Shown here piece after piece: positions 68-39,770 of a stretch of 64,000 bases of DNA. The notes below the pieces were generated by a model, which made no database searches, was not told the DNA's origin, and saw only the letters and a program-made list of their open reading frames with translations. This stretch comes from Eledone cirrhosa. Lineage: Eukaryota. The DNA lies in NCBI GenBank assembly GCA_964016885.1, contig OZ024740.1:244094001-244158000 (forward strand), in the 5' to 3' direction. Every line of letters starts with the position of its first letter. Positions within the stretch are counted from its first letter, which is position 1. The position numbers and the translations under genes were made by a program.

Positions 68-259
68 GCGGTGGATTGGCAGTATCGGTAGAGGGTCGGA
101 CGCCATGCTTTCGAGCATAGTTACGTCCCTTTACGATCTGAGTTCAAATCCCGCCGAGGTTGACTTTGCCTTTCATCCTTACGGGGTCGATAAAATAAAG
201 TACCAGTAATGCACTGGGTAATTGCTGGCCTTGTGCCTAAAGTAGAAACAATTATTATT
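68..259 (+). mobile_element. tRNA-derived SINE (Meta-domain-like body, (TAT)n tail)
   Basis: A-box TGGCAGTATCGG, B-box GAGTTCAAATCC, central GCCTTTCATCCTTACGGGGTCGATAAAATAAAGTACCAG, ATT tail; several more copies in the window. Confidence 0.85.
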
Positions 260-8438: not shown

Positions 8439-8689
8439 TATTATATATATGTGTGTGTTTGTGTGTGTGTGTGTGTGTGTAAATTGTATCCGCTTTGAAA
8501 CGTCCGTAGAGATGATAATATGCTATCCTTGGTTTTCTTAGAATTTGAATTGTAAATGTTCTGGTACCGGAACTGCCCTTTATTCATCCAATTTTCTTTT
8601 CACTCCTGAAGAGCAGAGATCTGTAAATTACATCGTGTGAAGATGTATGGAAGTTCTAAAACTCAGTACCCAGGACCTTAGACACCCTA

Positions 8690-9327
8690 AAGTAAATCAA
8701 CCGAAACTAAAAGCTCTTCGATACATCTCCACACACAACCTCCTCAACAATGAGGCCTTTGACACCATCCTCCAGAACATCCCTGTGTTAAAAAAGGACC
8801 ATACAATGAACCAAATCCTTCGAACACACGATATCATAAAGAGCAAAAGACAATCTAAGTCAATGAAAAACACCCTAACATATGCCAAAGTACTGCCAAC
8901 CACAACAACGAAACCCACAGTAAAAAAATGCGATAGACCCAACTGTGGCATATGCATCAACCTAATAGAGGGTTCGGAATTCTATTTCAAAGAAGGACAA
9001 CGTTTTATAGTAAAACACAATTTCACATGCGCATCAGAAAATCTAATATATGTATTAACTTGCTCAGGTTGTCGAGAACAATACATAGGCCAGACCAAAA
9101 ACAGCCTCCGCCAACGCATGACTGTCCATAGATCCCAAATTAAAATACGGGAATACAGGCAAATACCACTGCGTGAACACATTGATACCTGTGCCGCCCA
9201 AAATCATCCCAACTTTAGAATCTTTCCCCTCTACAAATTTAAAGATAATGCCACCCACACCCAGCGCATCAGCAAGGAATCTCACTTTATTAACAAATAC
9301 TGACCCCGTCTAAACACTTCTCCCTAA
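8690..9327 (+). pseudogene. Penelope-like element GIY-YIG endonuclease fragment
   Basis: CDRPNCGIC linker, NLIYVLTCSGCREQYIGQT..LRQRMTVH; premature stop at 9301-9303; homologous to 58030-58639. Confidence 0.9.
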
Positions 9328-13484: not shown

Positions 13485-13845
13485 TGTGTGAAAGTGTGAA
13501 TAGAAATCTATGCGTGTTATCTAGTGTGGGATGTAATTTCGTAAATCTTAACCTTCTTTTTAAAAGTATTCTAGAAAAATTTTCTAAAATTTAAATCCTG
13601 AACACTAAAAAATATGACGTAATATGGTGTATATCTTAAGTGTGAGTGTGCTTAAGGATATGTGCATTTCTGCGCGTGTATAGAGTCAAAAGATAGAGAT
13701 GGCTTTTGATATTCAAACATGTGGTCACCAATCATCTATCTTAACTCCCAGAGATTTTAGTCATTGTTTTCAGTTTATACGTTAGTCGGAAACCACCAAT
13801 AATGGTTAATTTATAGTAATTGTTTATTAAGTAGGGTCACATTTA

Positions 13846-14025
13846 TAATAATTGTTTCTACTTTTGGCACAAGGCCATCAATTACCCAGTACATTACTGG
13901 TACTTTATTTTATCGACCACGTAAGGATGAAAGGCAAAGTTAACCTCGGTGGGATTTGAACTCAGACCGCAAAGGGACGTAACTATGCTGGCGTCCGACT
14001 CTCTACCGATACTGCCAATCCAGCG
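13846..14025 (-). mobile_element. tRNA-derived SINE, same family as 68-259
   Basis: Reverse complement of the family sequence. Confidence 0.85.
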
Positions 14026-17821: not shown

Positions 17822-20410
17822 TTCCGTTTACCAAAGATCGTCCATAAAGAGGAGGTGATTGATGGTAAGCTCTCCCTTTCCCAACTTGAATCCTGCTCTC
17901 ACTTTTCGCAGTATAATGGTCAGAGGCATCAGGGCAAGGACAAACAACAGAGGAGACAGACTATCTCCCTGGAAGATACCTCCCTTGATCTTCACGCCTC
18001 CCAAGGATTCTCCAGCCGATGTTAACTCTGTTTTCCATGACTTCATACTTTTGCTCAACAACTGTCTGATGTTATCTGCCACCCTGAAGATCTCTAGGCT
18101 TTTGGTGATCCAAGAATGAGGCACCATGTCAAATGCATTTTTCTAGTCTATCCATCACATGGCAAGACCAGTGTGTCTGCTCCTACAATTCCTCATTACC
18201 ATCTTATCAATAAGTAACTGGTCTTTTGTACGACGGGACTTCTTTCGGCATCCTTTCTGTTTGTCCGGTAACAAGTTGTTTGTGTGGAGTTGATGGTAGA
18301 TTTCCTCAGACACAATGTTTGTTAACAGTTTCCACATTACGGACAGCCATGTGATAGGTCTATAGTTGGTAACATCATTACCCTTGATTCGGTCTTTCAT
18401 TACCAGAACTATGGTACCTTTTGTCAACTACTCTGGTACCTCACCCGACATCAAGCAGTCATTGAACATGGTTGTCAGTTTCGGGTGGAGGGATGTTATA
18501 TTTTGAATCAAATACCCCTGCACACCGTCTGGGCCTGGTGATTTCCAGTTGGTTAGTTTTTTGGCCTGCCCCTTAAGAGTTTCAACTGTGATACTCAAAT
18601 CAGTTTGTTGGTGTGCCTGTTCACTAATCTCCTTTTGAACTGTTTCAATCCACACCGCCTGATCATTATGTTTAACATCCTGCTCCCATATTCCTCTCCA
18701 GAATGTCTTAGTTTGTTCCGCCTCAGGGATCAAGTCGTTGCCTCTTTTTTCCCTTCAAGCTGCCCAAACAACATCTTCTGGTTGTTGTCAGACATGCGGT
18801 TCTGTCTATACCGACTGACTCTGCTCTCGTATCGCCTAATTTTTGCACCCTTTGCTACAATGCGTTGCTTCAGTTCCTCTATGATAATATTTAGCTTTTT
18901 CCTCCTAGTTTTGTACTTTATTTTCAGTCTATTTCTAGTGTCTATGTTTTTTAGTGTCCCATTCAGAAGGGACTCAAGCTTTCCAATGTCATTTCTCATT
19001 TCCCTGATGTGACCATTCAGTCGTTTCTTCCACTAAGGTTCTGATCTTTCTTGTTTGTTGTTTCCCCTTGCTTTTATGCCAAGTAATTTCCTCACCGCAT
19101 TTGCTGTTGCTTTGAGGATATTGTTGCACTGGTGAAGGCTCCTCGCCTCAAGGTATGGGATGAATTTGTTTACCATAGCTGTTGTTTCTTTTAACTTTTT
19201 CCTGTCTACAAATCTTAGGTTCATAGGTTTTCCACTATCATTGTTCATTTCATCTAACACTAAGTTTAAGATATCAACCAAATCTTGTCCTAGCCCGTCA
19301 GCATTCATTTCCTCAATGGCCGTATCTTTGTTCCAGTTATTATTTATTTCAGCATTCAGATCATTGTCTGCTTCGGATGGTTCCTCCGTTCTCTCAACCT
19401 CTTCACCTTCATTTCCCACTGGCTCGTTTGTCTGGCACACTCCACTCTCCATTTCAAACCTAATCTCTCTGCTCAGTTCCAGCTCGCTTATCCACCCATT
19501 AGTTCTTATTACCCGAGCCTGCCCGGCCAATTTTTGTTCATCTAATTTAAATAGACCAATCTCGTTCCAGATGTTATGCATCCGTTTCCTATAGCCTTTT
19601 TCCTTGGAGTTACTCTTCAGGTAACATTGCATAACAGTTCTATTCAATTCTTTCGTCCAGTTGGTTCTGGTCCCTTTCCTTGTTGTTCTTCCTCCAACAC
19701 CAGCAGTATTTGGATGACAGCCAGGTCCCTGCTGCTGGGTCATGGAGCACCTGCTGGGTGAGAGTCTGTCACATGACATTCCAGTCTCCACTTCACCGTT
19801 ATTCGAACTGTTCAGGTTCGACATTTAAGCACTCATATTGAGGATTGGTGAATGTATGGTTACATAACTACCGGTGATTTCATCACCCCCGGTGATTTTA
19901 GCGTGGCACCATCACGCTGTAGACGAACATAAATAAACAAAAACAAACAAATAGATAAAAATCTAAAAAAACAAAAATAAACATAAGTCTCATTGTAATG
20001 TTTGAATGTCTCACTTAGTTTTTTTCCTTTTTTTTCGTTTTTTGTTTGTTTTTCTCCTTTGCGATTTTCGTTCTACAAGGCCAGTAACATCGGTTACTAG
20101 TGTTGTTGTTGCTGCTGCTGCTAAGGGAAGTAGGGGTTGTGTTCAAAACTTTTGAAATTTGTGTTTGTTGTTGCGTTTGCTTCTGTCTATGTTCTGTTCT
20201 ATAATTTTTCGACTATAATTTTTTCTATAATTTTTTTCCTTTCATCCCTACGGGGCCGACACCACAAAGCACCTGCAACACACCGGGACAATTGCTGGCC
20301 CCGTGCCAAAAGCAGAAGCAATTATTATTATTATATTATAGTTTAGATTTGACATCGTTTAAACTAAACATTTTGAGAGAATTTAGAGATACAACAACAT
20401 AATTATTATT
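17822..20410 (-). mobile_element. R4/Dong-clade non-LTR retrotransposon, 5' half, decayed (copy A)
   Basis: ORF starts at 19824; [47 protein letters not shown]; 5' region shared with copy B. Confidence 0.9.
20238..20335 (+). mobile_element. SINE 3' half, T-to-C hypermutated
   Basis: Aligns to the family body with ~13 T>C changes. Confidence 0.8.
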
Positions 20411-20411
20411 A

Positions 20412-20502
20412 TTTCCTTCCAGGGTCGATAGAATAAAGTACCAGTAATGCACTGGTTAATTGCTGGCCTTGTGCCAAAAGTAGAAACAATTATTATTATT
20501 AT
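20412..20502 (+). mobile_element. SINE 3' fragment
   Basis: GGGTCGATAGAATAAAGTACCAG...AAACAATTATT. Confidence 0.8.
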
Positions 20503-21210
<708 letters not shown>

Positions 21211-21558: not shown

Positions 21559-21752
21559 TGTGGATTGGCAGTATCGGTAGAGGGTCTGACGCCATGCTTT
21601 GACGCATAGAGTTACGGCCCTTGCCATTCTGAGTTCAAATCCCGCCGAGGTTAACTTTGCCTTTCATCCTTACGGGGTCGATAAAATAAAGTACCAGTAA
21701 TACACTGGGTAATTGCTGGCCTTGTGCCAAAAGTAGACACCATTATTATTAT
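21559..21752 (+). mobile_element. tRNA-derived SINE, same family as 68-259
   Basis: Full A-box, B-box, body and TAT tail. Confidence 0.85.
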
Positions 21753-27469: not shown

Positions 27470-28212
27470 TTGTTCATGCTATTTTCTTCTTCTTCTTCTT
27501 CTTCTTCAGCAGTGGCGGCAACACAAGTAGCTACATTTGCAGTAGCAACAAAATCGCCAAAGAGGGCTCCACTACAACCACCATCAGCCGTGGAGCATAT
27601 ACCCCTCCCAGACGCCACGGAATCCGACATGGAGTCTGAGGTGGGAGTGAAGTGGCAAACAGTCTGCCACAAAAAACAAAAGAGAAAGAAACCCTTAGCT
27701 TCACCCGCCAAAAGCGAAGGCAAACAAAAAGGGGTAAAGGCTGCAAGGCGACTCGCAGCAACGCCACCACCATCACCACCACAAGTATCACCACCAACTA
27801 CAACCACACCACCACCAGCATCGCCACAAACACCAACATCGCAAACACAACAAGGCAAACATACCCAACAGCAGTAACAAGAAAACAGCAACAAAACCAA
27901 ACCCCCAAAAAACATTTCACAGCCTTAAACATGGCAAATAAAGAACTCTTAGAACATATAAAGCAGCACACAGACATTACGGACAAAAATTACTACACCC
28001 CACCAACACCAAGAACTCTCCCGAAAAATATAAACATTATTGAAATTAAAATAGAACATTATAAACATTTAAAAGAAAAATTCCCCAACGCAGTTGGAGA
28101 CTTCAGAGAGTCGGTTGCCAAAAGGATACACACCGACATCATCTTGGAGACACCCATGACCATCCAAAGGGACGGTTCAACTGTCCCTTTCCCACACGAT
28201 CAGGGTAGGTGA
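27470..28212 (+). pseudogene. Possible LINE ORF1 remnant
   Basis: SDMESE..WQTV..KKQKRKK acidic/basic N-terminus and Pro/Thr-rich linker directly upstream of an L1-type EN. Confidence 0.4.
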
Positions 28213-28249
28213 TCCTTTCTCACTTACTCCATTCCTCACCCAACATAGC

Positions 28250-31200
28250 ATTACTTAGAATAGGCAGTATAAATGTACGTGGCCTGGGGTCATCGTGGAA
28301 GCAGGGCCACCTGCTTAACGACCTCAGATCACTAAACATAGATGTGGTGGCCATCAGGGAGACCAGAATTTCTGAAGCACGAGACTTCGCACCGATCTTC
28401 GGCGGCTACGATGTATACGCATCTCCCAGCCGTCCACAGGGGGGGGGGGGGACACACAGAGTTGCTGTGCTTTTTCAGAGAGGCTTGGATCTCGCCATAC
28501 GAGCCATCTTCCTGGACCCAGAAGGTAAGTCGGTGGTACTGGACGCGACGGACAGCGAAGGCAATGCTTTTAGGCTAGTAGCCGTCTACGCTCCAACAGG
28601 GACAGGACGGCCAGATTTCTTCAGACGTCTAGAGACCTTTCTTGGAACGTCCCGCTCTTTAGTGTTAGTGGGTGACTGGAACGGTATCTTAGATGCACGC
28701 TGGGATTATGTGGGGCTAGTAAATAAGGGAGGAGGATGTAAAAGTCTCACCAACCTGCTCAGACGTTTTCAACTGTCTGATAGGTATCGACTGGATTATC
28801 CGAATGTGCCAATGTGGACATGGGCAAACCGCATCGGGTCATCCAGATCGTATCTAGAGAGGGTATTGTGTAGAAAAACAGATAAGGCTAGCCTAGGTTG
28901 TCCATAATTTAAAGTAGTCGGCTACTCGGACCACAAATTTGTGATCTGTGAAGTCGACTTAGATAGACTTCATAAGCAAGGAGGCGTTTAGGACCGGCAT
29001 CGCAACCGACATGCTTGCGGCAAGATTGGCATTCGACCAATTGTTTAATGCACGAAGGCTGCGTTATCAGAGCTAGAGCGCGTGCTCTAAGACAAGAGGG
29101 GACAAAATCTGGCCAATGGGCCCGGGTGGTGGAGGCGCGACGTGGCAACAAAGCCACAATTCAATCCTTGCCTGACCAAAATGGGCACATGTTACTCGAA
29201 CCCGAGCAGATGTGTGAGGCTTTTCAGCAGCACTTTGCTCAACTGTTTGGGAGCGGCGGCGGGCCAGATCGGAGTATGATTTCAGTGCATACCTCGAGGG
29301 ACTATCGCAGCTCTCGATGACCGCAGTGCAGTATTGCGAAAAGCCGATAACAGCCAGTGAAATACGAAGGCTAAATCGCCAGGTTTGGATGGTCTGCCCT
29401 ACGAGCTTTATGCGTACATGCCAGACTTGTTCGGCGACATCTTGGCAGACGTCTACCGCAACTGGCAGCAGAACGGGAGCATTCCCAGTTTTATGAGCCG
29501 GGGAGCGGTGGCGCTGTTGAGAAAAGACCCGAACAAAGGGGACGTTATAGACAACTTCAGGCCCATAACTCTGTTAAACATAGATTTCAAAATTTTGGCC
29601 AAGGTGTTAGCAACGAGATTGTCGTTGGTAATCTGGTAGGAGAAGCGCAGACATGCGCCATTCCAGACAGCTTCATCCACGACAACCTCCACCTCATGCG
29701 ATACATAATAGAGAGGGTGGTTAAGGAACTTGGCCCGGATGGAGCCCTGATCAACTTAAATCAATCTAAGGCTAGTTTCGGGCCCATTTTCAGGGGTTGG
29801 ATCGCTGCGATGCACAGCGACATCTGCTCAGTTGTAAAGAGGAACGGTCATCTGTTACAGCCGTTCAGCAGCATGCGCTCGGTCCGTCAGGGTTGTCCCC
29901 TCTCGTCACTCTTGTACGTATTGGCCCTATGGCCGTTACTGCACAAATCGGAGGCGATGAGAGACGTCCCACGCGAACTGGGATGTGGGAGATCCGTATC
30001 GGCTTACGACGACGACATTACCGTGGTGGTGTCAAGCGCCGGACATGTCCAGATGCTCGGCACCACTCTCAAGGAATATGAAACAGTGACAGGAGCAAAG
30101 TTAAACCAGAAAAAGTCGGTGGGTTTGCAGCTCGGCACCTGGAGAGGCAAGTCTATGCCGCCCGTCAGCGTCGTGGGGCGCTGGACGGAAGGACCTGTTA
30201 AAATGCTCGAGGTCTGGTTCGGTCCGAACCTCCAGATGTAGGAAAACTGGAGCGAGGTGACAAACAGGGTGACCTCTCTCACCCAGAAATGGGTCGAGAA
30301 GAAGCTGTCCCTGAAAGGTCAGGCAGAGGTTTCGAATACGTACATCGCATCCGTCATCTGCTACCGCCTAATCGTTGTGCCTTGCCTCGGCCCAACTCTG
30401 ACAAAAGTGGAGCGCTTCCTCTTCCGTTTTTATGGAAGGGACGTGCTCCAATGGTCAGACGATCCATCTGTTGTCAACAACCGTTGCGTGGAGAGCTGGG
30501 CATACCGTGGCTGATGATGCGCAAATAGGCGCTGAGGCTACGACATCTCTGGTGCTTCCTTAACGGTGGACAGGTGTGGTCACCATTTGCCAGACGTGTT
30601 TTTCCCCAGCTCGTCTCATTAACGGAGCTGCAGTACTGGATCAGGAGAAGGCCGAGGGATAGCGCTTGGAAGCTGGAATGTCTCCAAGCGCTCACAGCCT
30701 TCTACCAGCTGGGCACTAGTATCAGCTGTTTGCCCTCATCAAGAGAACTTTCAGACCGGGACCTATGGACAACTTGCAGAAATCCCTGGCCTGGCAGTGC
30801 TACCGGGGAGCGTTGCCGATTCGAGATAAGCTCTACAGGCACGGAGGTGCTGTCAGCCGAACCTGTTCGAGATGCGCACAGGGCGACGAAACCGTCGTGC
30901 ACGCACTTGTTCAGTGCCCGAGCATTGCTGACTTGTGGAGCTATGTCGAACAGTTGCTGTCGCGTGTAGGGCGGATCCGGTTATCGACTGATTCCATTGT
31001 GCAGATAGCCCCGCCATCCTCCTTTAAAGAGGAGGAAGGGCAGGCAGTTTTCATCAGCCTGGTGGCCATGGCGAAAGAGATTGTGTGGTGGACAAGGTTG
31101 AAAGGGTTGAAGACGGACACTTTCTTCTCCGGCCAATCCCTGATTAACTTTTTCATGTTTCACTTGAAGAGGAAAATCAGGGTGGAGAAATAAGTGCTGT
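28250..31200 (+). mobile_element. L1/Tx1-clade LINE ORF2, decayed (APE, RT, zinc finger)
   Basis: GSINVRGL..ETR, VYAP, GDWN, SDH; PGLDGLPYE, NFRPITLLNIDFKILAK, VRQGCPLS, AYDDD; CSRC..ETVVHALVQCP. Confidence 0.92.
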
Positions 31201-31627: not shown

Positions 31628-34600
31628 TGGGAGGTCAAAATCCTTTTTACCTCCCACTTTAAGTCCTGGTATCGGTTAATTTTCTCCCTCTCCTTTTCTT
31701 GCACTCTCGTGTCAAATGGGCAGACTACATCTACAATCAGGCATGATCTTTTTTCCTTGTCCAAAACCACCAGGTCAGGCCTATTGTGTTCCAGTTTCTT
31801 GTCCGTCTGTATCCTAAAATCCCATAGCACCTTCACCTGATCGTTTTCTATCACCAACTCTGGCTTATGCTCATACCACTTCTCAGTATGTGGTAAATTG
31901 TTTACTTTGCATAGGTGCCAGTGGATCACCCTGCCCATCACACCATGTCTCCAGCCCTTATAGTGAGTCTGGGTTCGGTGTTTACACTCGGATGCAATGT
32001 GAGTCACAGTCTCCTCTCTCTCTCCACAGATCCTACACAGTGGGCTAGCCTCCTCCTTGTAAATATGGTGTTTCACCCACTTCGTTCTGAAGGCCTGCTC
32101 TTGCGCAGCCATTAGCATTCCTTCTGTAGCCTTTTTAATGTCTCATCTTTTCAACCAGTTCCATGTCTGTGGATCTCTAAATTCAGTTTTCTCAAAGAAG
32201 GCACTATGAAGGGATTTTTCATGAAGGCTGCTCTTTCTCCTTGCTGTTATTTCCTCCTTGGACATGCCCTGATCTATTGTCCTCTCCTTCAGTACAATTC
32301 TGAGCATTGGCTCCCTACTGTCAGTCACGTATTTGTGCAGGTTGTTTTTCTCCATCTCAACACAGCCCTCTATGCTGATAAGACCTCTTCCACCATCACT
32401 CCTCTTGTGGAACATGTTGTAGATAGTCAATAGCTTCCTAGTCTTCCTATCTCTCCTATTTCCTGTTTCTTTTTGTTCAGCAACATTCCATTTCAGAATT
32501 CCCGCACTGTACCTAATAATAGACACAGCTCGGGAATTTACTGCACTTATGACATTCCTACTGTTCAGATGTGATTTTAATACGCTCCTTATTCTCCGAA
32601 TGTATTCAGATCTTATCAATTCTTCCATTTTTTTTTTCTTGATGTCATCTGCCTCCAGAACACCTAAATATTTGTATCCTTCTTCACTGTCAATTTCCTT
32701 TATCATCTCACCTGTTGGTACCAGGATTCCGTTGCTTCTGCTCAATTTACCCCTCTTCATCACAAGGACTCCACACTTACTAATACCAGATTCCATACAT
32801 ATATCATTGCTGAAAATACGGACAGTGTCAACAGGTACATCCAACTCCTTCTCACTCTTCCCAAAGAGTTTAAGATCGTCCATGAAGAGGAGGTGATTGA
32901 TGGTAAGCTCTCCTTTTCCCAACTTGTATCCTGCTCTCACTTTTCGCAGTATAATGGTCAGGGTATCAGGGCAAGGACAAACAACAGAGGGGACAAACTA
33001 TCTCCCTGGAAAATAACTCTCTTGATCTTCATGCCTCCCAAGGATTCTCCACCCGATGTTAACTCTGTTTCCCAGGACTTCCTATTTTCGCTCAACCACT
33101 GTCTGATGTTAACTGCCACCTTGAAGATCTCTAGGCTTTTGGTTATCCATCCCATGGCAAGACCAATGTGTCTCCTCCTGCAATTCCTCATTACCATCTT
33201 ATCAATAAGTAACTGGTCCTTTGTACCACGGTACTTCTTTCGGCATCCTTTCTGTTCATCCGGTAACAAGTTGTTTGTGTGGAGGTGATGGTAGATTTCC
33301 TCAGACACAATGCTTGTTAACAGTTTCCACATTACGGACAGACATGTGATAGGTCTATAGTTGGTAACATCATTACACTTGATTCGGTCTTTCATTACCA
33401 GAACTGTGTTTGTTACCTTTTGTCAACCACTCTGGTACCTCACCCTACATCAAGCAGTCATTGAACATGGTTGTCAGTTTCGGGTGGAGGGATGTTATAT
33501 TTTTATCAAATACCCCTGCACACCACATGGGCCTTGCGATTTCCAGTTGGTTAGTTTTTTGGTCTGCCCCTTAAGAGTTTCAACTGTGATACTCAAATCA
33601 GTTTGTTTGTGTGCTTGTTCACTAATCTCCTTTTATACTGTCTCAATCCACAATGCCTGATCATTATGTTCAACACCCTGCTCCAGAATGTCTTACTCTG
33701 TACCGTCTCAGGGATCAAGTCGTTGCCTTTTTCTTTCCCTTCAAGCTGTCCAAACAACACTGGTTGTTGTCAAACATGCGGTTCTGTCTATACTGACTGA
33801 CTCTGCTATCATACCGTCTAATCTTTGCACTCTTTGCTATAATGCGTTGCTTCAGTTCCTCTATGGTGATATTTAGCTTTTTCCTCCCAGTTTTGTACTT
33901 TATTTCCAGTCTATTTTTAGTGTCTATGTTTTTTAGTGTCCCATTCAGTAGGGACTCAAGCTTTCCAATGTCATTTCTCATTTCCTTGATTTGACCATTC
34001 AATCATTTCTTCCACCAAGGTTCTGATCTTTCTTGTTTGTTGTTTCCACTCGTTTTTATGCCAAGTAATTTCCTCACCGTATTTGCTGTTGCCTTGAGGA
34101 TATTGTTGCATTGGTGAAGGTTCCTCGCCTCAAGGTATGGGATGACTTTGTTTACCTTAGCTGTTGTTTCTTTTAACTTTTTCCTGTCTACAAATCTTAG
34201 GTTCATAGGTTTTCCACTATCATTGTTCATTTCATCTACCACTAAGTTTAAGATACCAATCAAATCTTGTCCTAGCCCGTCAGCATTCATTTCCTCATTG
34301 GCCGTATCTTTGTTCCAGATGTTATTTATTTCAGCATTCAGATCATTGTCTGCTTCGGATGGTTCCTCCGTTCTCTCAACCTCTTCACCTTCATTTCCCA
34401 CTGGCTCGTTTGTCTGGCACACTCCACTCTCCATTTCTAACCTAATCTCTCTGCTCAGTTCCTCCAGTTCCAACTCGCTTATCCATCCATTAGTTCTTAT
34501 TATCCTAGCCTGCCCGGCCAATTTTTGTTCATCTAATTTAAATAGACCAATCTCGCTCCAGATGTTATGCATCCGTTTCATATAGCCTTTTTCCTTGGAG

Positions 34601-35500
34601 TTACTCTTCGGGTAACATTGCATAACAGTTCTATTCAATTCTTTCGTCCAGTTGGTTCTTGTCCCTTTCCTTCTTCTTCTTCCTCCAACACCAGCAGTAT
34701 TTGGATGACAGCCAAGTCGCTGCTGCTTGACCAGGGGGCACTTGCTGGGTGAGAGTCTGTCACATGGCGTTCCAGTCTCCACTTCACCGTTATTCGAACT
34801 GTTTAGGTTCGACATTTAAACACTCATATCGAGGATTGCTGAATGTATGGTTACATTACCACCGATGATTTCATCACCCCCAGTGATTTCATCATCCCCG
34901 GTGGTTTTAGCGTGGCACTATCACGCTGTAGACGAACATAAATAAATGAACAAATAAACAGATAAAAACTTTAAAAAATAAACATAAGTTTCATTGTAAT
35001 GTTTGAATGTCTGAGTTAGTTTTTTTGTTTGTTTGTTTTTTTTCCTTTACGTTTTTCGTTTTTCAAGGCCAATAACATCGGTTACTAGTGTTGTTGCTGT
35101 TGTTGCTACTGCTGCTGCTGCTGTTTTTGATTTTAGCTACGTGTGAAGTAGGGGTTGTTGCGTTCAAAACTTTTGAAATTTGTTTTTTGTTTGTGTGCTG
35201 TTCTATAATCTTTCGACTTGTTGCTTATTATTATTATTATGGCAGTATCGGTAGAGGGTCTGACGCCATGCTTTGCAGCAAAGAGTTACGGCCCTTGCGA
35301 TTCTGAGTTCAAATCCCGCCGAGGCCAACCTTGCCTTTCCTCCTTACGGGGTCGATATAATAAAGTAACAGTAATACACTGGGATAATTGCTAGCCAAAA
35401 GTAGAAACAATTATTATTATATTATAGTTTAGATTTGACATCGTTTAAGTTAAACATTTTGAGAGAGTTTAGAGTTTAGAGATAAAACAATAATTATTAT
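31628..35500 (-). mobile_element. R4/Dong-clade element, nearly full length, decayed (copy B)
   Basis: ORF starts at 34815; RT motifs, CRIC..HIASEC knuckle, WDF..HNRPDLVVLDK restriction-like endonuclease. Confidence 0.92.
35240..35425 (+). mobile_element. tRNA-derived SINE inside the Dong 5' region
   Basis: Same position relative to Dong as 20238-20335; shared downstream flank TAGTTTAGATTTGACATCG. Confidence 0.85.
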
Positions 35501-36027
35501 TTTGGTGTTGTTGTTGTTATTTGTTTGACCGGGTCACTAAATCAGTCTATTTATATCTTTTGATGCCTTCCTCGCTTATTCATGTGTAGTGGCACTACTA
35601 CCACCCCTCTCTTAACAAGAGGTAATGAGGGAAGAGTGGTGGTAGCGATGATGCAGTGGTGGCGGTGGTGATGGGATAGTAGTACTATAGTGATGGTGTT
35701 GCTGCAGCCTGGCTAGATTTTTAGTAGTAGTGGTGATGGTGGTGGTGGCCATGGTGGTGTTGGTGGTGAAATTATTTGGCTGTTGTTCGTAACCATTTTC
35801 TTTTTTGACTATAACATTTCTTATGCAAAATTAAATATTAAATACTGGAGCCCTATGCCATAATGTGATTTGTTGTCACTCCCTTAGAGTTGAAACTAGT
35901 ATCTTATGTTCCATTTGTAATAAGAATTATTCTATCACAATTGTTTTAAATATGTAAAAAATCAAAAACTTACGTGAGCGATTCCATAACACTCTATCCA
36001 CCATGTGCGTATGATTATTATTATTGC

Positions 36028-36375
36028 TAAAAGGTGGATGAATGTGGCGAGAATGGCCCGTGTGAATGGGCCTACTCTGACCATGTGCCTATAGGCTAGA
36101 TAAATTGAGGAGAGGGGTGCTCTCCCTGGGTGCCCTAGAAGCGCAGGGTGGTTCAGGATTGGTGGGGTACCCGAGTCACTCCAGGGTCGTCCACCCCCTA
36201 TCGGGGAATTTATTTTGTTATATTTATGCATAGTTTATTTGATATTTTTTATATCTTCATTGTTAAATCAGTCTTGCTATTGTGCACTTTTACTCGACTG
36301 TATTCTAAACCCCCACTGTCCCTGTCTTTGTATTGTCCCCTACATGTCGGCCCTTGTGGCTAATAAATGAAATCA
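36028..36375 (+). mobile_element. 3' end of L1/Tx1-like LINE
   Basis: RWMNVARMARVNGPTLTMCL* plus 3' UTR and ATT tail. Confidence 0.65.
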
Positions 36376-36440
36376 TTATTATTATTAATATTATTATTAT
36401 TATTATTTTTATTATTATTATTATTATATTGTTATTACTC

Positions 36441-38876
36441 TTTGAGTCTCAGTCATTGATGTTAGTTAACTGGAAAGTTTGTTGAAATGAATATCAAGCC
36501 ACTACCTGCAGCCTCAGATATTCAGGACGTATCGGAGGGTTCTTGCTGTTCCCAGCAAGCATGCCTTTTGAAGTGTTCCAAAAAGCGGGGCGGGACCAAT
36601 TTTCTTTAACCATCCTTGGAAACTCTTTGAGATAGTCCCTAGTGCGCCTATGACAATCGGGACGACCTTGATTTCATGGCAGTTCCAAATCCTTTTTACC
36701 TCCCACTTTAAGTCCTGGTATCGGTAAATTTTCTCCCTCTCCTTCTCTTGCACTCTCGTGTCGAATGGGCAGGCCACATCCACAATCAGACACGATCTTT
36801 TTCCCTTGTCCAAAACCACCAGGTCAGGTCTATTGTGTTCCAGTTTCTTGTCCGTCTTTATCTTAAAATCCCACAGCACCTTCACCTGATCGTTTTCTAT
36901 CACCAACTCTGGCTTATGCTCCTACCACTTCTCAGAATGTGGTAAATTGTTTACTTTGCATAGGTGCCAGTGGATCACCCTCCCATCACATCATGTCTCC
37001 AGCCCTTATAGTGAGTCTGGGCTAGGTGTTTATACTCGGATGCAATGTGAGTCACAGTTCCTTTCTCTCTCTCTCCACAGATACTGCACAGTGGGCTAGC
37101 CTCCTCCTTGTAAATATGGTGTTTCAACCACTTCGTTTTGAGGGCCTGCTCTTGCGCAGCCATTAGCATTCCTTCTGTAGCCTTTTTAAGGTCTCATCTT
37201 TTCAACCAGTTCCATGTCTGTGGATCTCTAAATTTAGTTTTCTCAAAGAAGGCACTATGAAGGGATTTTTCATGAAGGCTGCTCTTTCTCCTTGTTGTTA
37301 TTTCGTCCTTGGACATCCCTGGTCTATTGTCCTCTCCTTCAGTACAATTCTGAGCATTGGCTCCCTACTATGAGTCACGTATTCGTGTAGGTTGTTTTTC
37401 TCCATCCGAACACAGCCCTCTATGCTGATAAGACCTCTTCCACCTTCAGATCTCCTTAAGTAGAGTCTATCGACATCACTCCTTTTGTGGAACATGTTGT
37501 AGATAGTCAATAGCTTCCTAGTCTTCCTATCCATTTCTTTTTGTTCAGCAACATTCCATCTCAAAATTCCCGCACTGTACCTAATAATAGACACAGCTCG
37601 GGAATTTACTGCACTTATGGCATTCCTACTGTTCGGATGTGACTTTAATACGCTCCTTACTCTCCGAATGTATTCAGATCTTATCAATTCCTTCACTTTT
37701 TGTTCTTGATGTCATTAGCCTCCAGAACACCTAAATACTTGTATCCCCCTTCAGTATCAATTTCCTTTATCATCTCACCTGTTGGTATCTGGATTCCGTT
37801 GCTTCTGCTCAATTTACCCCTCTTCATCACAAGGACTGCACACTTACTAATACAAAATTGCATACATATATCACTGCTGAAAATACGCAGTGTCAACAAG
37901 CACATCCAACTCCTTCTCACTCTTCCCGAAGAGCGTAAGATCGTCCATGAAGAGGAGGTGATTGAGGGTAAGCTCTCCTTTTCCCAACTTGTAACCTGCT
38001 CTCACTTTTCGCAGTACAATGGTCAGGGGGATCAGGGCAAGGACAAACAACAGAGGGGACAAACTATCTCCCTGGAAGATACCTCTCTTGATCTTCACGC
38101 CTCCCAAGGATTCTCCGCCCGATGTTAACTCTGTTTTCCAGGACTTCATACTTTTTCTCAACAACTGTCTTATGTTATCTGCCACCTTGAAGATCTCTAG
38201 GCTTTTGGTTATCCAAAAATGAGGTACCATGTCGAATGCCTTTTTGCAGTCTATCCATCCCATGGCAAGACCAATGTGTCTCCTCCTGCAATTCCTCATT
38301 ACCATCTTATCAATAAGTAACTGGTCCTTTGTACCACGGGACTTCTTTCGGCATCCTTTCTGTTCGTCCGGTAACAAGTTGTTTATGTGGAGGTGATGGT
38401 AGATTTCCTCAGACACAATGCTTGTTAACAGCTTCCACATTACGGACAGTCATGTGATAGGTCTATAGTTGGTAACATCATTACTCTTGGTTCGGTCTTT
38501 CATTACTAGAACTGTGGTACCTTTTGTCAACCACTCTGGTACTTCACCTGACATCAAGGAGTCATTGAACATGGTTGTCAGTTTCGGGTGGAGGGATGTT
38601 ATATTTTGAATCCAATACCCCTGCACACCATCTGGGCCTTGCGATTTCCAGTTGGTTAGTTTTCTGGCCTGCCCCTTCAGAGTTTCAACTGTGATACTCA
38701 AATCAGTTTGTTGGTTTGCCTGTTCACTAATCTCCTTTTCTACTATCTCAATCCACACTGCCTGATTATTATGTTTAACATCCTGCTCCCATATTCCTCT
38801 TCAGAATGTCTTAGTTTGTTCCGCCTCAGGGACCAAGTCGTTTTCTCTTTCTTTCCCTTCAAGCTGTCCAAACAAC
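36441..38876 (-). mobile_element. 5'-truncated R4/Dong element (copy C), 3' end in (TAA)n
   Basis: RT, knuckle, RLE and QKACLLGTARTLRYVLNI* C-terminus. Confidence 0.92.
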
Positions 38877-38888
38877 TTATTATTGTTA

Positions 38889-39770
<882 letters not shown>

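What the first reader, a model, noticed from the sequence alone, without database searches (positions are those of the whole stretch)
20238..20335. Possible fossilised A-to-I hyper-editing: T>C-hypermutated SINE in the 5' region of a minus-strand Dong LINE
Seen: against sister copies (21660-21735, and the positionally equivalent copy at 35335-35410) this ~75-nt stretch has about 13 T>C changes and only ~3 other substitutions; about 8 of the 13 are at TpA. On the minus strand, which is the LINE's transcript strand, these are A>G with a 5' U neighbour. Copy B has a few more T>C changes (GAGGCCAACCTT vs GAGGTTAACTTT at ~35321-35332). Established: ADARs prefer a 5' U/A neighbour, RT reads inosine as G, and coleoid cephalopods edit RNA heavily. 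Inference: an ADAR-edited LINE transcript was reverse-transcribed back into the genome.
Basis: partly seen in the sequence, partly recalled or inferred. Interest (0 to 1): 0.78.

Follow-up and report, generated by a model that had tools for sequence, protein, structure and literature searches.

The report
RNA-editing scars inherited by retrotransposon lineages
A short repeat lodged backwards inside a jumping gene carries a dense, one-stranded burst of A-to-G changes that dozens of daughter copies inherited, likely because the RNA-editing enzyme ADAR rewrote the element's RNA before it was copied back into heritable DNA.

Summary
In detail: 12 of 22 T columns of a SINE 3' half are C. These are A>G on the sense strand of a Dong/R4-type LINE that carries the SINE antisense in its 5' UTR. 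The change is not private to this copy. It is one ancestral burst (11 A>G, 0 other changes, confined to the SINE) inherited by a LINE lineage, marked in 46 of 100 listed UTR junctions. The same burst type recurs in other Dong and RTE-like lineages. Pooled over 13 events, the 5' neighbour order is U>A>C>G, repeated in 5 further arms; post-insertion mutations are flat. An inverted SINE pair gives the control: both arms carry A>G on one strand, only in the stem, and a partner-less relative is unedited. Best reading: ADAR-edited RNA was reverse-transcribed into masters that stayed active (0.85). The focal dsRNA partner is not in the element; pairing with SINE RNA in trans is inferred. No RNA data were available. 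Retroviral precedent exists; ten literature searches listed no title reporting a germline non-LTR case. This scan noted similar scars in three findings on other DNA (unchecked).

The parts
20234..20331 (+). 3' half (about positions 91-180) of a SINE, antisense within the LINE 5' UTR; 12 T>C (A>G on LINE sense) at 20248, 20256, 20260, 20265, 20270, 20276, 20279, 20284, 20289, 20301, 20302, 20313
19825..20407 (-). remaining 5' UTR of LINE copy A (outer part missing); carries further lineage-shared A>G changes outside the SINE
17834..19824 (-). 5' part of the single ORF of Dong/R4-type LINE copy A, broken and 3'-truncated
31628..36012 (-). LINE copy B, near full length, with RT matches; ancestral-type UTR
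35240..35420 (+). full-length T-rich SINE at the same UTR site in copy B; 3 T>C (35325, 35326, 35330), all at sites often changed in other events
36414..38890 (-). third, 5'-truncated copy of the same LINE (RT and 3' end)
21560..21752 (+). free T-rich SINE copy C, 0 T>C; ancestral-state control
20414..20499 (+). T-rich SINE 3' piece just beyond the truncated 5' end of copy A
69..259 (+). free T-rich SINE copy
13845..14022 (-). free T-rich SINE copy

Best explanation
A SINE sits antisense in the 5' UTR of a Dong/R4-type LINE, and an ancestral copy of that LINE gained 11 A-to-G changes in one stretch of the SINE, likely because ADAR edited the LINE RNA where it was double-stranded and the LINE's reverse transcriptase then likely copied inosine as G into germline DNA. 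Shown: the burst is one-stranded, confined to the SINE, inherited by a multi-copy lineage, followed by later layers, and paralleled in other Dong and RTE-like lineages, with an ADAR-order neighbour bias and stem-only changes in an inverted pair. Inferred: the enzyme (ADAR), the RNA stage, and that the focal stretch paired in trans with abundant sense SINE RNA (about 0.55; otherwise with an inverted SINE in a read-through transcript). Because the scar is in the UTR, the edited copy remained a source of new copies.
For: (1) Polarity. B-type copies hold the full T-rich SINE at the same site and sit basal in an ORF tree. L180/L181 hold the full SINE with the burst in its 3' half only. (2) Six earliest-state copies share 11 A>G of 21 A and 0 other changes in the SINE half, against 6 A>G of 360 A in the UTR flanks. 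(3) Lineage-shared UTR changes: A>G 46/395 against T>C 9/275, P 8e-5. Private changes in the UTR are symmetric, 27 vs 28 and 26 vs 18. (4) 13 hand-grouped events: 150 edit-type changes, 2 mirror-type, 18 other transitions, 18 transversions. 5' neighbour rates U 0.73, A 0.55, C 0.24, G 0.16; 3' rates G 0.58, C 0.50, A 0.39, U 0.32; pattern-forced sites excluded; site-level G versus rest P 0.003. Five new arms: U 0.66, A 0.64, C 0.29, G 0.15. Human ADAR1 is 5' U>A>C>G, 3' G>C~A>U (PMC3113232, passages). Private ORF changes show no 5' bias. (5) Inverted SINE pair in an RTE-like element, 5 copies: both arms A>G on the element strand; sense arm 9-17 of 26-28 A in the partnered part against 1 of 15-17 unpartnered; 0-2 of 39-115 A in the 5' flank; 32 of 86 stem pairs are G-U; fold z -12. 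Relative L161, with no inverted partner, lacks the burst. A further antisense SINE in L159, probably a later insert, has 0 core changes. A second, unrelated inverted pair, L204, has 18 and 13 changes on one strand. (6) Mirror patterns: T>C 73 and 31 matches, A>G 1 and 1, both the same hairpin arm. (7) The genome has an ADAR2-like gene.
Against: No RNA evidence at all. No long inverted repeat or opposite SINE in the Dong elements examined. A>G sites outside the SINE (36/399 A vs 8/260 T) are not more paired than other adenosines in 5 of 6 folded UTRs, and over the whole UTR the first context test showed no 5'-G depletion (5 of 46). PMC5625713 (passages) reports A, not G, enriched downstream in invertebrate hyper-editing; here 3' A is not favoured. 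Background SINE changes are already about twofold higher at TpA on both strands. Events were picked by patterns that force 2-3 changes and were grouped by hand; some may share a partly edited ancestor, and the match counts are mostly inherited copies, not events. Private A>G exceeded T>C in B-group ORFs (76 vs 26, P 0.018), unexplained. In cell culture ADAR1 did not edit human L1 RNA (PMC5224506, passages). The hairpin loci were not checked in raw reads.
Confidence: 0.85

Rival explanations
1. ADAR acted on DNA, not RNA: SINE RNA formed an RNA:DNA hybrid with the genomic SINE (or with its cDNA at insertion), and dA in the DNA strand was deaminated, giving T>C on the SINE sense strand with ADAR context.
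For: Predicts the T>C excess and the context. Four edited loci or pairs could not be assigned to a retroelement: L204, L216, L130, L134. ADAR activity on DNA in hybrids is recalled, and one listing (10.1101/2020.02.11.943845) proposes it.
Against: It cannot give A>G on the sense arm of the hairpins. All 30 loci lie in Dong UTRs (28) or the RTE-like hairpin (2), although free SINEs are far more numerous. Editing at SINE insertion is excluded for the focal site because unedited copies have the same insertion. A>G layers also occur outside the SINE on the same strand.
Confidence: 0.07
2. Error bursts by the LINE reverse transcriptase or by a translesion polymerase (polymerase eta-like, WA motif, recalled) during second-strand synthesis made the A>G clusters.
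For: It would be strand-specific and inherited; the WA motif overlaps 5' U/A. Lineage-shared ORF A>G are 23 of 27 after A or U, though codon structure confounds this.
Against: Changes stop at the stem: unpartnered SINE part and flanks of the same molecule are spared, and the first Dong burst stops at the SINE boundary. The ORF shows no strand excess in shared changes (27/1184 vs 13/693).
Confidence: 0.05
3. The C-rich form is a separate SINE subfamily, or the ancestral state, with T-rich copies derived (C>T decay or APOBEC-like G>A), or it came in by gene conversion.
For: The variant is multi-copy.
Against: 23 of 23 exact matches are in the LINE UTR. Different lineages have different C sets. 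Most changes are TpA/CpA, not CpG. The C-rich lineage has the derived, truncated SINE.
Confidence: 0.02
4. Assembly or sequencing artefact.
For: None for the focal stretch; the hairpin loci have no read check.
Against: Shared, nested patterns on many contigs; raw reads from another study.
Confidence: 0.01

Closest known systems
A-to-G hyper-edited avian retroviruses and T-cell leukaemia viruses (Felder 1994; Hajjar and Linial 1995; Ko 2012), seen only as cited in passages of PMC8586724; the Hajjar paper itself was not held
   Same: ADAR-type A>G clusters in the RNA of a reverse-transcribing element; 5' A/U excess and 5' G depletion is the signature that review describes for viruses
   Different: Those are exogenous retroviruses, partly in culture only. 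Here the elements are non-LTR, the changes are germline-fixed, recurrent, and passed on by masters that kept copying.
APOBEC DNA editing of LTR retrotransposons fixed in vertebrate genomes (Knisbacher and Levanon, PMC4866542, passages; Zaranek, PMC2873906, passages)
   Same: Host deaminase scars in retroelements, read by comparing copies; clustered and strand-specific
   Different: G>A on the sense strand from cDNA deamination, LTR elements, depleted in the 19 invertebrates screened. Here A>G, stem-dependent, non-LTR, invertebrate. The word ADAR does not occur in PMC4866542's main text.
Hyper-editing of SINE-derived dsRNA in transcriptomes (Porath, PMC5625713, passages)
   Same: SINE substrate, clustered A>G, upstream G depleted; octopus CNS sample had 1,053,826 unique sites
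   Different: RNA-level and not inherited there. Its invertebrate group prefers A downstream, which is not seen here.
ADAR1 restriction of human L1 (PMC5224506, passages)
   Same: ADAR meets a LINE RNA
   Different: That effect was editing-independent and no L1 edits were found in more than 2.5 kb.

Membership tests
ADAR A-to-I hyper-editing | Dense cluster of A>G on one strand with few other changes | tested here: met
   11 of 21 A, 0 other changes in earliest-state copies; 150 edit-type vs 2 mirror-type over 13 events
ADAR A-to-I hyper-editing | 5' neighbour order U>A>C>G with G depleted | tested here: met
   against PMC3113232; private ORF changes flat. Pooled result; the focal stretch alone is too saturated.
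ADAR A-to-I hyper-editing | Confined to double-stranded RNA (sister hairpin elements) | tested here: met
   stem 9-17 of 26-28 A vs 1 of 15-17 unpartnered, flank 0-2 of 39-115 (4 of 5 copies P<0.05); partner-less L161 lacks the burst
ADAR A-to-I hyper-editing | A dsRNA partner for the focal stretch | tested here: inconclusive
   no cis partner in the Dong elements examined; a free SINE would pair over the whole stretch (duplex -141.8 kcal/mol), but its expression was not shown
ADAR A-to-I hyper-editing | 3' neighbour preference | tested here: inconclusive
   G>C>A>U (chi-square P 0.018), C>G>A>U and not significant; fits human ADAR1, not the invertebrate A preference in PMC5625713
ADAR A-to-I hyper-editing | Inosine or A>G mismatch in RNA from an unedited locus | not testable with these tools
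   no run on record as RNA was offered
ADAR A-to-I hyper-editing | Host encodes ADAR | tested here: met
   12 A_deamin matches at four places; one exon matches human ADAR2 at E 3e-102; germline expression not tested
Dong/R4-clade RLE non-LTR retrotransposon | Single ORF with RT, CCHC knuckle and C-terminal restriction-like endonuclease | tested here: met
   1141-aa open frame in L098 with RT, CxxC-H-C and PD..D..K motifs read by eye (motif labels recalled); RVT_1; best solved relatives are R2 proteins
Dong/R4-clade RLE non-LTR retrotransposon | Ends in or inserts at (TAA)n microsatellites | tested here: met
   6 of 6 printed 3' ends run into (AAT)n; the Dong target preference is recalled
Dong/R4-clade RLE non-LTR retrotransposon | Groups with named Dong/R4 elements in an RT tree | not tested
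PMC9115989 (passages) mentions an octopus Dong consensus.
APOBEC DNA-edited retroelement | G>A on the element's sense strand relative to the ancestor | tested here: not met
   polarity gives A>G
Independent C-rich SINE subfamily | Free-standing copies with the same diagnostic changes | tested here: not met
   23 of 23 exact matches in the LINE UTR

The most novel reading that the evidence does not exclude
In this mollusc's germline, abundant SINE RNA acts as a guide that pairs in trans with any retroelement transcript carrying an antisense SINE. ADAR edits the duplex and reverse transcription writes the edits into active masters. RNA editing is then a recurrent, sequence-targeted, heritable mutator that drives LINE 5' UTR evolution and leaves a layered fossil record of germline ADAR specificity.
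Probability: 0.45. Interest if true: 0.9.

Novelty: new variant of a known kind. Interest (0 to 1): 0.8.

Why it matters
It is sequence evidence that RNA edits can become inherited DNA in an animal germline, repeatedly and through masters that stay active: 46 of 100 listed UTR junctions of this LINE carry a marker of the edited lineage (hand count), and a second lineage carries its own edits. The genome supplies its own controls (paired versus unpaired, partnered versus partner-less), so whether ADAR edits LINE RNA in vivo, which was negative for human L1 in culture, becomes testable from assemblies alone. It also means that repeat subfamily diagnostics and divergence-based ages can be inflated by a single editing round.

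Tried and rejected
Sequencing-run search: no RNA holder listed; no conclusion on expression. Folding six ancestral-type UTRs did not show the non-SINE A>G sites to be paired (1 of 6 with P<0.05). Self-comparison of four elements found no long inverted repeat. Context over the whole UTR with a loose filter was flat; with sites shared with B copies removed it leaned U 0.14, A 0.09, C 0.07, G 0.04 outside the SINE (not tested for significance). The ORF tree has short internal branches and mixes UTR groups, so branch-wise counting was dropped in favour of group-shared columns; L195 was the root. Age order by private ORF divergence (B 1.9%, early 1.8%, late 1.5%) was not significant. ARAGORN found no tRNA in the window, so the SINE's tRNA origin and Pol III transcription rest on recall. 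L138, L140, L143 (3-6 T>C) and L200, L213, L214, L217 (2-4 T>C) matched the patterns but were left out of the context counts as possible chance; L205, L206, L207, L208, L209, L215 were left out of the replication as relatives of counted families. The idea that SINE-plus-outer-UTR pieces are antisense transcripts was not pursued, since recombination between SINEs explains them as well. Literature: ten searches, seen as listings, showed no title or abstract start reporting germline-fixed ADAR editing of non-LTR elements; subscription papers and all supplements were not seen, so prior art may exist.

Full report
Observation. The stretch 20234-20331 is the 3' half of a SINE of about 180 bases with several copies in the window. 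Against the majority of 121 near-full pieces it has 12 T>C at 22 T columns, plus 2 A>C, 1 A>T, 1 A>G, 1 G>A at a polymorphic column and an edge G>T. Non-hypermutated pieces in the same loci change T to C at 0.0149 per site. Copy B has 3 T>C and free copy C none. Raw reads from two samples of another study cover the C-rich form.

Setting. The SINE lies antisense in the 5' UTR of a minus-strand LINE of about 4.6 kb that ends in (AAT)n and has one ORF with RT, a CCHC knuckle and a restriction-like endonuclease motif; its closest solved relatives are R2 proteins. The label Dong/R4 fits this anatomy but was not tested on a tree. The 3.0-Gb host has mollusc-type haemocyanin repeats and an ADAR2-like gene; that it is an octopod is likely from recall only.

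It is inherited, not private. All 40 listed places matched the C-rich region at 89-100%, and 23 exact 30-mers all lie in this UTR in one orientation. B-type copies have the full T-rich SINE at the same site. L180 and L181 have the full SINE with the burst in its 3' half; other copies have lost the 5' half. Six earliest-state copies share 11 A>G among 21 A of the SINE half and no other change, against 6 of 360 A in the flanks. Later sublineages add the twelfth change, the transversions and small A>G clusters outside the SINE, for example five within nine columns and six within 70. Over 15 lineage copies against 7 B-type copies, shared UTR changes are A>G 46/395 and T>C 9/275, while private UTR changes are symmetric and shared ORF changes show no significant excess. 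Of 107 UTR junction matches, 100 were listed and 46 carry the edited base (counted by hand).

It recurs. A pattern forcing three T>C gave 73 matches. I examined 51 of them: 13 lie outside Dong UTRs, and others belong to different Dong lineages. A second pattern gave 18 (14 examined) and a third 31, of which 30 were examined: 28 in Dong UTRs of a second lineage and 2 in the hairpin family. The mirror patterns, forcing A>G at the same TpA sites, gave one match each, the same arm. These counts are mostly inherited copies, so they show the direction of the bias, not the number of events.

The natural control. That one match is an arm of an inverted SINE pair inside a short RTE-like element, named by resemblance recalled from memory. 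Five copies share the pair. Both arms carry A>G on the element's strand, with partly different patterns per copy. In the sense arm, 9-17 of 26-28 partnered A are changed against 1 of 15-17 unpartnered, and 0-2 of 39-115 in the flank. The stem still folds (z -12) with 32 G-U pairs of 86. L161 has the same sense SINE without a partner and no burst; L135 has only an antisense SINE and 14 changes. L204 is a second, unrelated inverted pair with 18 and 13 changes on one strand. Polymerase error would not respect a stem, and deamination of DNA in a SINE RNA hybrid would not hit the sense arm.

Context. Thirteen hand-grouped events give 5' neighbour rates U 0.73, A 0.55, C 0.24, G 0.16 and 3' rates G 0.58, C 0.50, A 0.39, U 0.32, forced sites excluded. 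Five further arms give U 0.66, A 0.64, C 0.29, G 0.15. This is the order measured for human ADAR1 (PMC3113232, passages). Private ORF changes are flat; background SINE changes lean about twofold to TpA on both strands, less than the 4.5-fold U:G ratio in the events. Against: the downstream A preference reported for invertebrates (PMC5625713, passages) is not seen.

Mechanism. Shown: one-stranded bursts, SINE-bounded, stem-dependent where a stem exists, ADAR-ordered, inherited and layered. Established knowledge: ADAR deaminates A in dsRNA, and inosine is read as G in reverse transcription (PMC5224506). Inferred: the LINE RNA was edited and then inserted, and the new copy stayed a master because the ORF was spared. 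The weakest step is the partner. No Dong element examined has an opposite SINE or long inverted repeat. A free SINE would pair along the whole stretch, and antisense-embedded SINEs are hit without a partner while the one partner-less sense copy is not, which suggests pairing with SINE RNA in trans; that contrast rests on very few sense-embedded cases, and an inverted SINE in a read-through transcript is the alternative. The clusters outside the SINE have no identified partner.

Comparison and novelty. It works like ADAR hyper-editing and parallels edited retroviruses (cited in PMC8586724, passages) and APOBEC scars in LTR elements (PMC4866542; PMC2873906; passages). It differs in being A>G, non-LTR, germline-fixed and propagated by active masters. 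Ten searches, seen as listings, showed no such report; subscription journals and supplements were not seen. Three unchecked notes of this scan describe similar scars on other DNA; none exists for this genome. I had reached the reading before seeing them and do not count them as support.

Verdict. Real; ADAR-edited RNA written back into DNA at 0.85; new variant of a known kind; interest 0.8.

Noticed in passing
G000:C17:942850-943140 (L142/L155), also L156-L159: Short RTE-like element with an inverted SINE pair; both arms A>G on one strand, only in the stem; the clearest case in this genome.
   Followed up: yes
L204:1190-1557 (G000:C1 near 296727033): Second inverted pair of a longer SINE variant, 18 and 13 changes on one strand; host element not identified.
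   Followed up: partly
L194, L197, L224-L252: A second multi-copy Dong lineage with two edited SINE halves in its UTR; copies differ in edit number (4 to 14 in the longer half), as if edited in successive rounds.
   Followed up: partly
L120, L136, L141, L205, L207, L215: Family with an antisense SINE piece (positions 30-180), five of the six beside an RTE-like 5' stretch, carrying 9-15 T>C in partly copy-specific patterns.
   Followed up: partly
L186-L190, L185, L206, L209: A second full SINE beside the edited half was itself edited in its 5' half; L185 joins both sets (23 changes), probably by recombination.
   Followed up: partly
L039, L053, L056, L055, L059: Pieces made of the SINE plus the outer LINE 5' UTR without the inner UTR directly beside them; deletion between SINEs or antisense transduction.
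   Followed up: no
LINE ORF alignment: 23 of 27 lineage-shared A>G follow A or U (background 597 of 1184); low-level editing or codon structure.
   Followed up: partly
window 36015-36370 and 20538-20860: Plus-strand repeat ends with (ATT)n tails that resemble the SINE 3' end by eye; possibly the LINE that mobilises the SINE.
   Followed up: no
window 8641-9303, 49180-50589, 57839-58639: GIY-YIG matches, one with weak RT: Penelope-like elements (label recalled).
   Followed up: no
window 28209-30241: Plus-strand LINE with endonuclease/exonuclease/phosphatase and RT matches.
   Followed up: no
window 53218-55654: Near-identical units of about 470 bases in tandem, part of them inverted (about 99%); may be an assembly feature. 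The window also holds 200 N.
   Followed up: no
G000:C1:173.75-173.91 Mb and C26:21.93-22.02 Mb: Haemocyanin gene clusters; one C1 gene shows seven beta-sandwich matches, the octopod-type number by recall.
   Followed up: no
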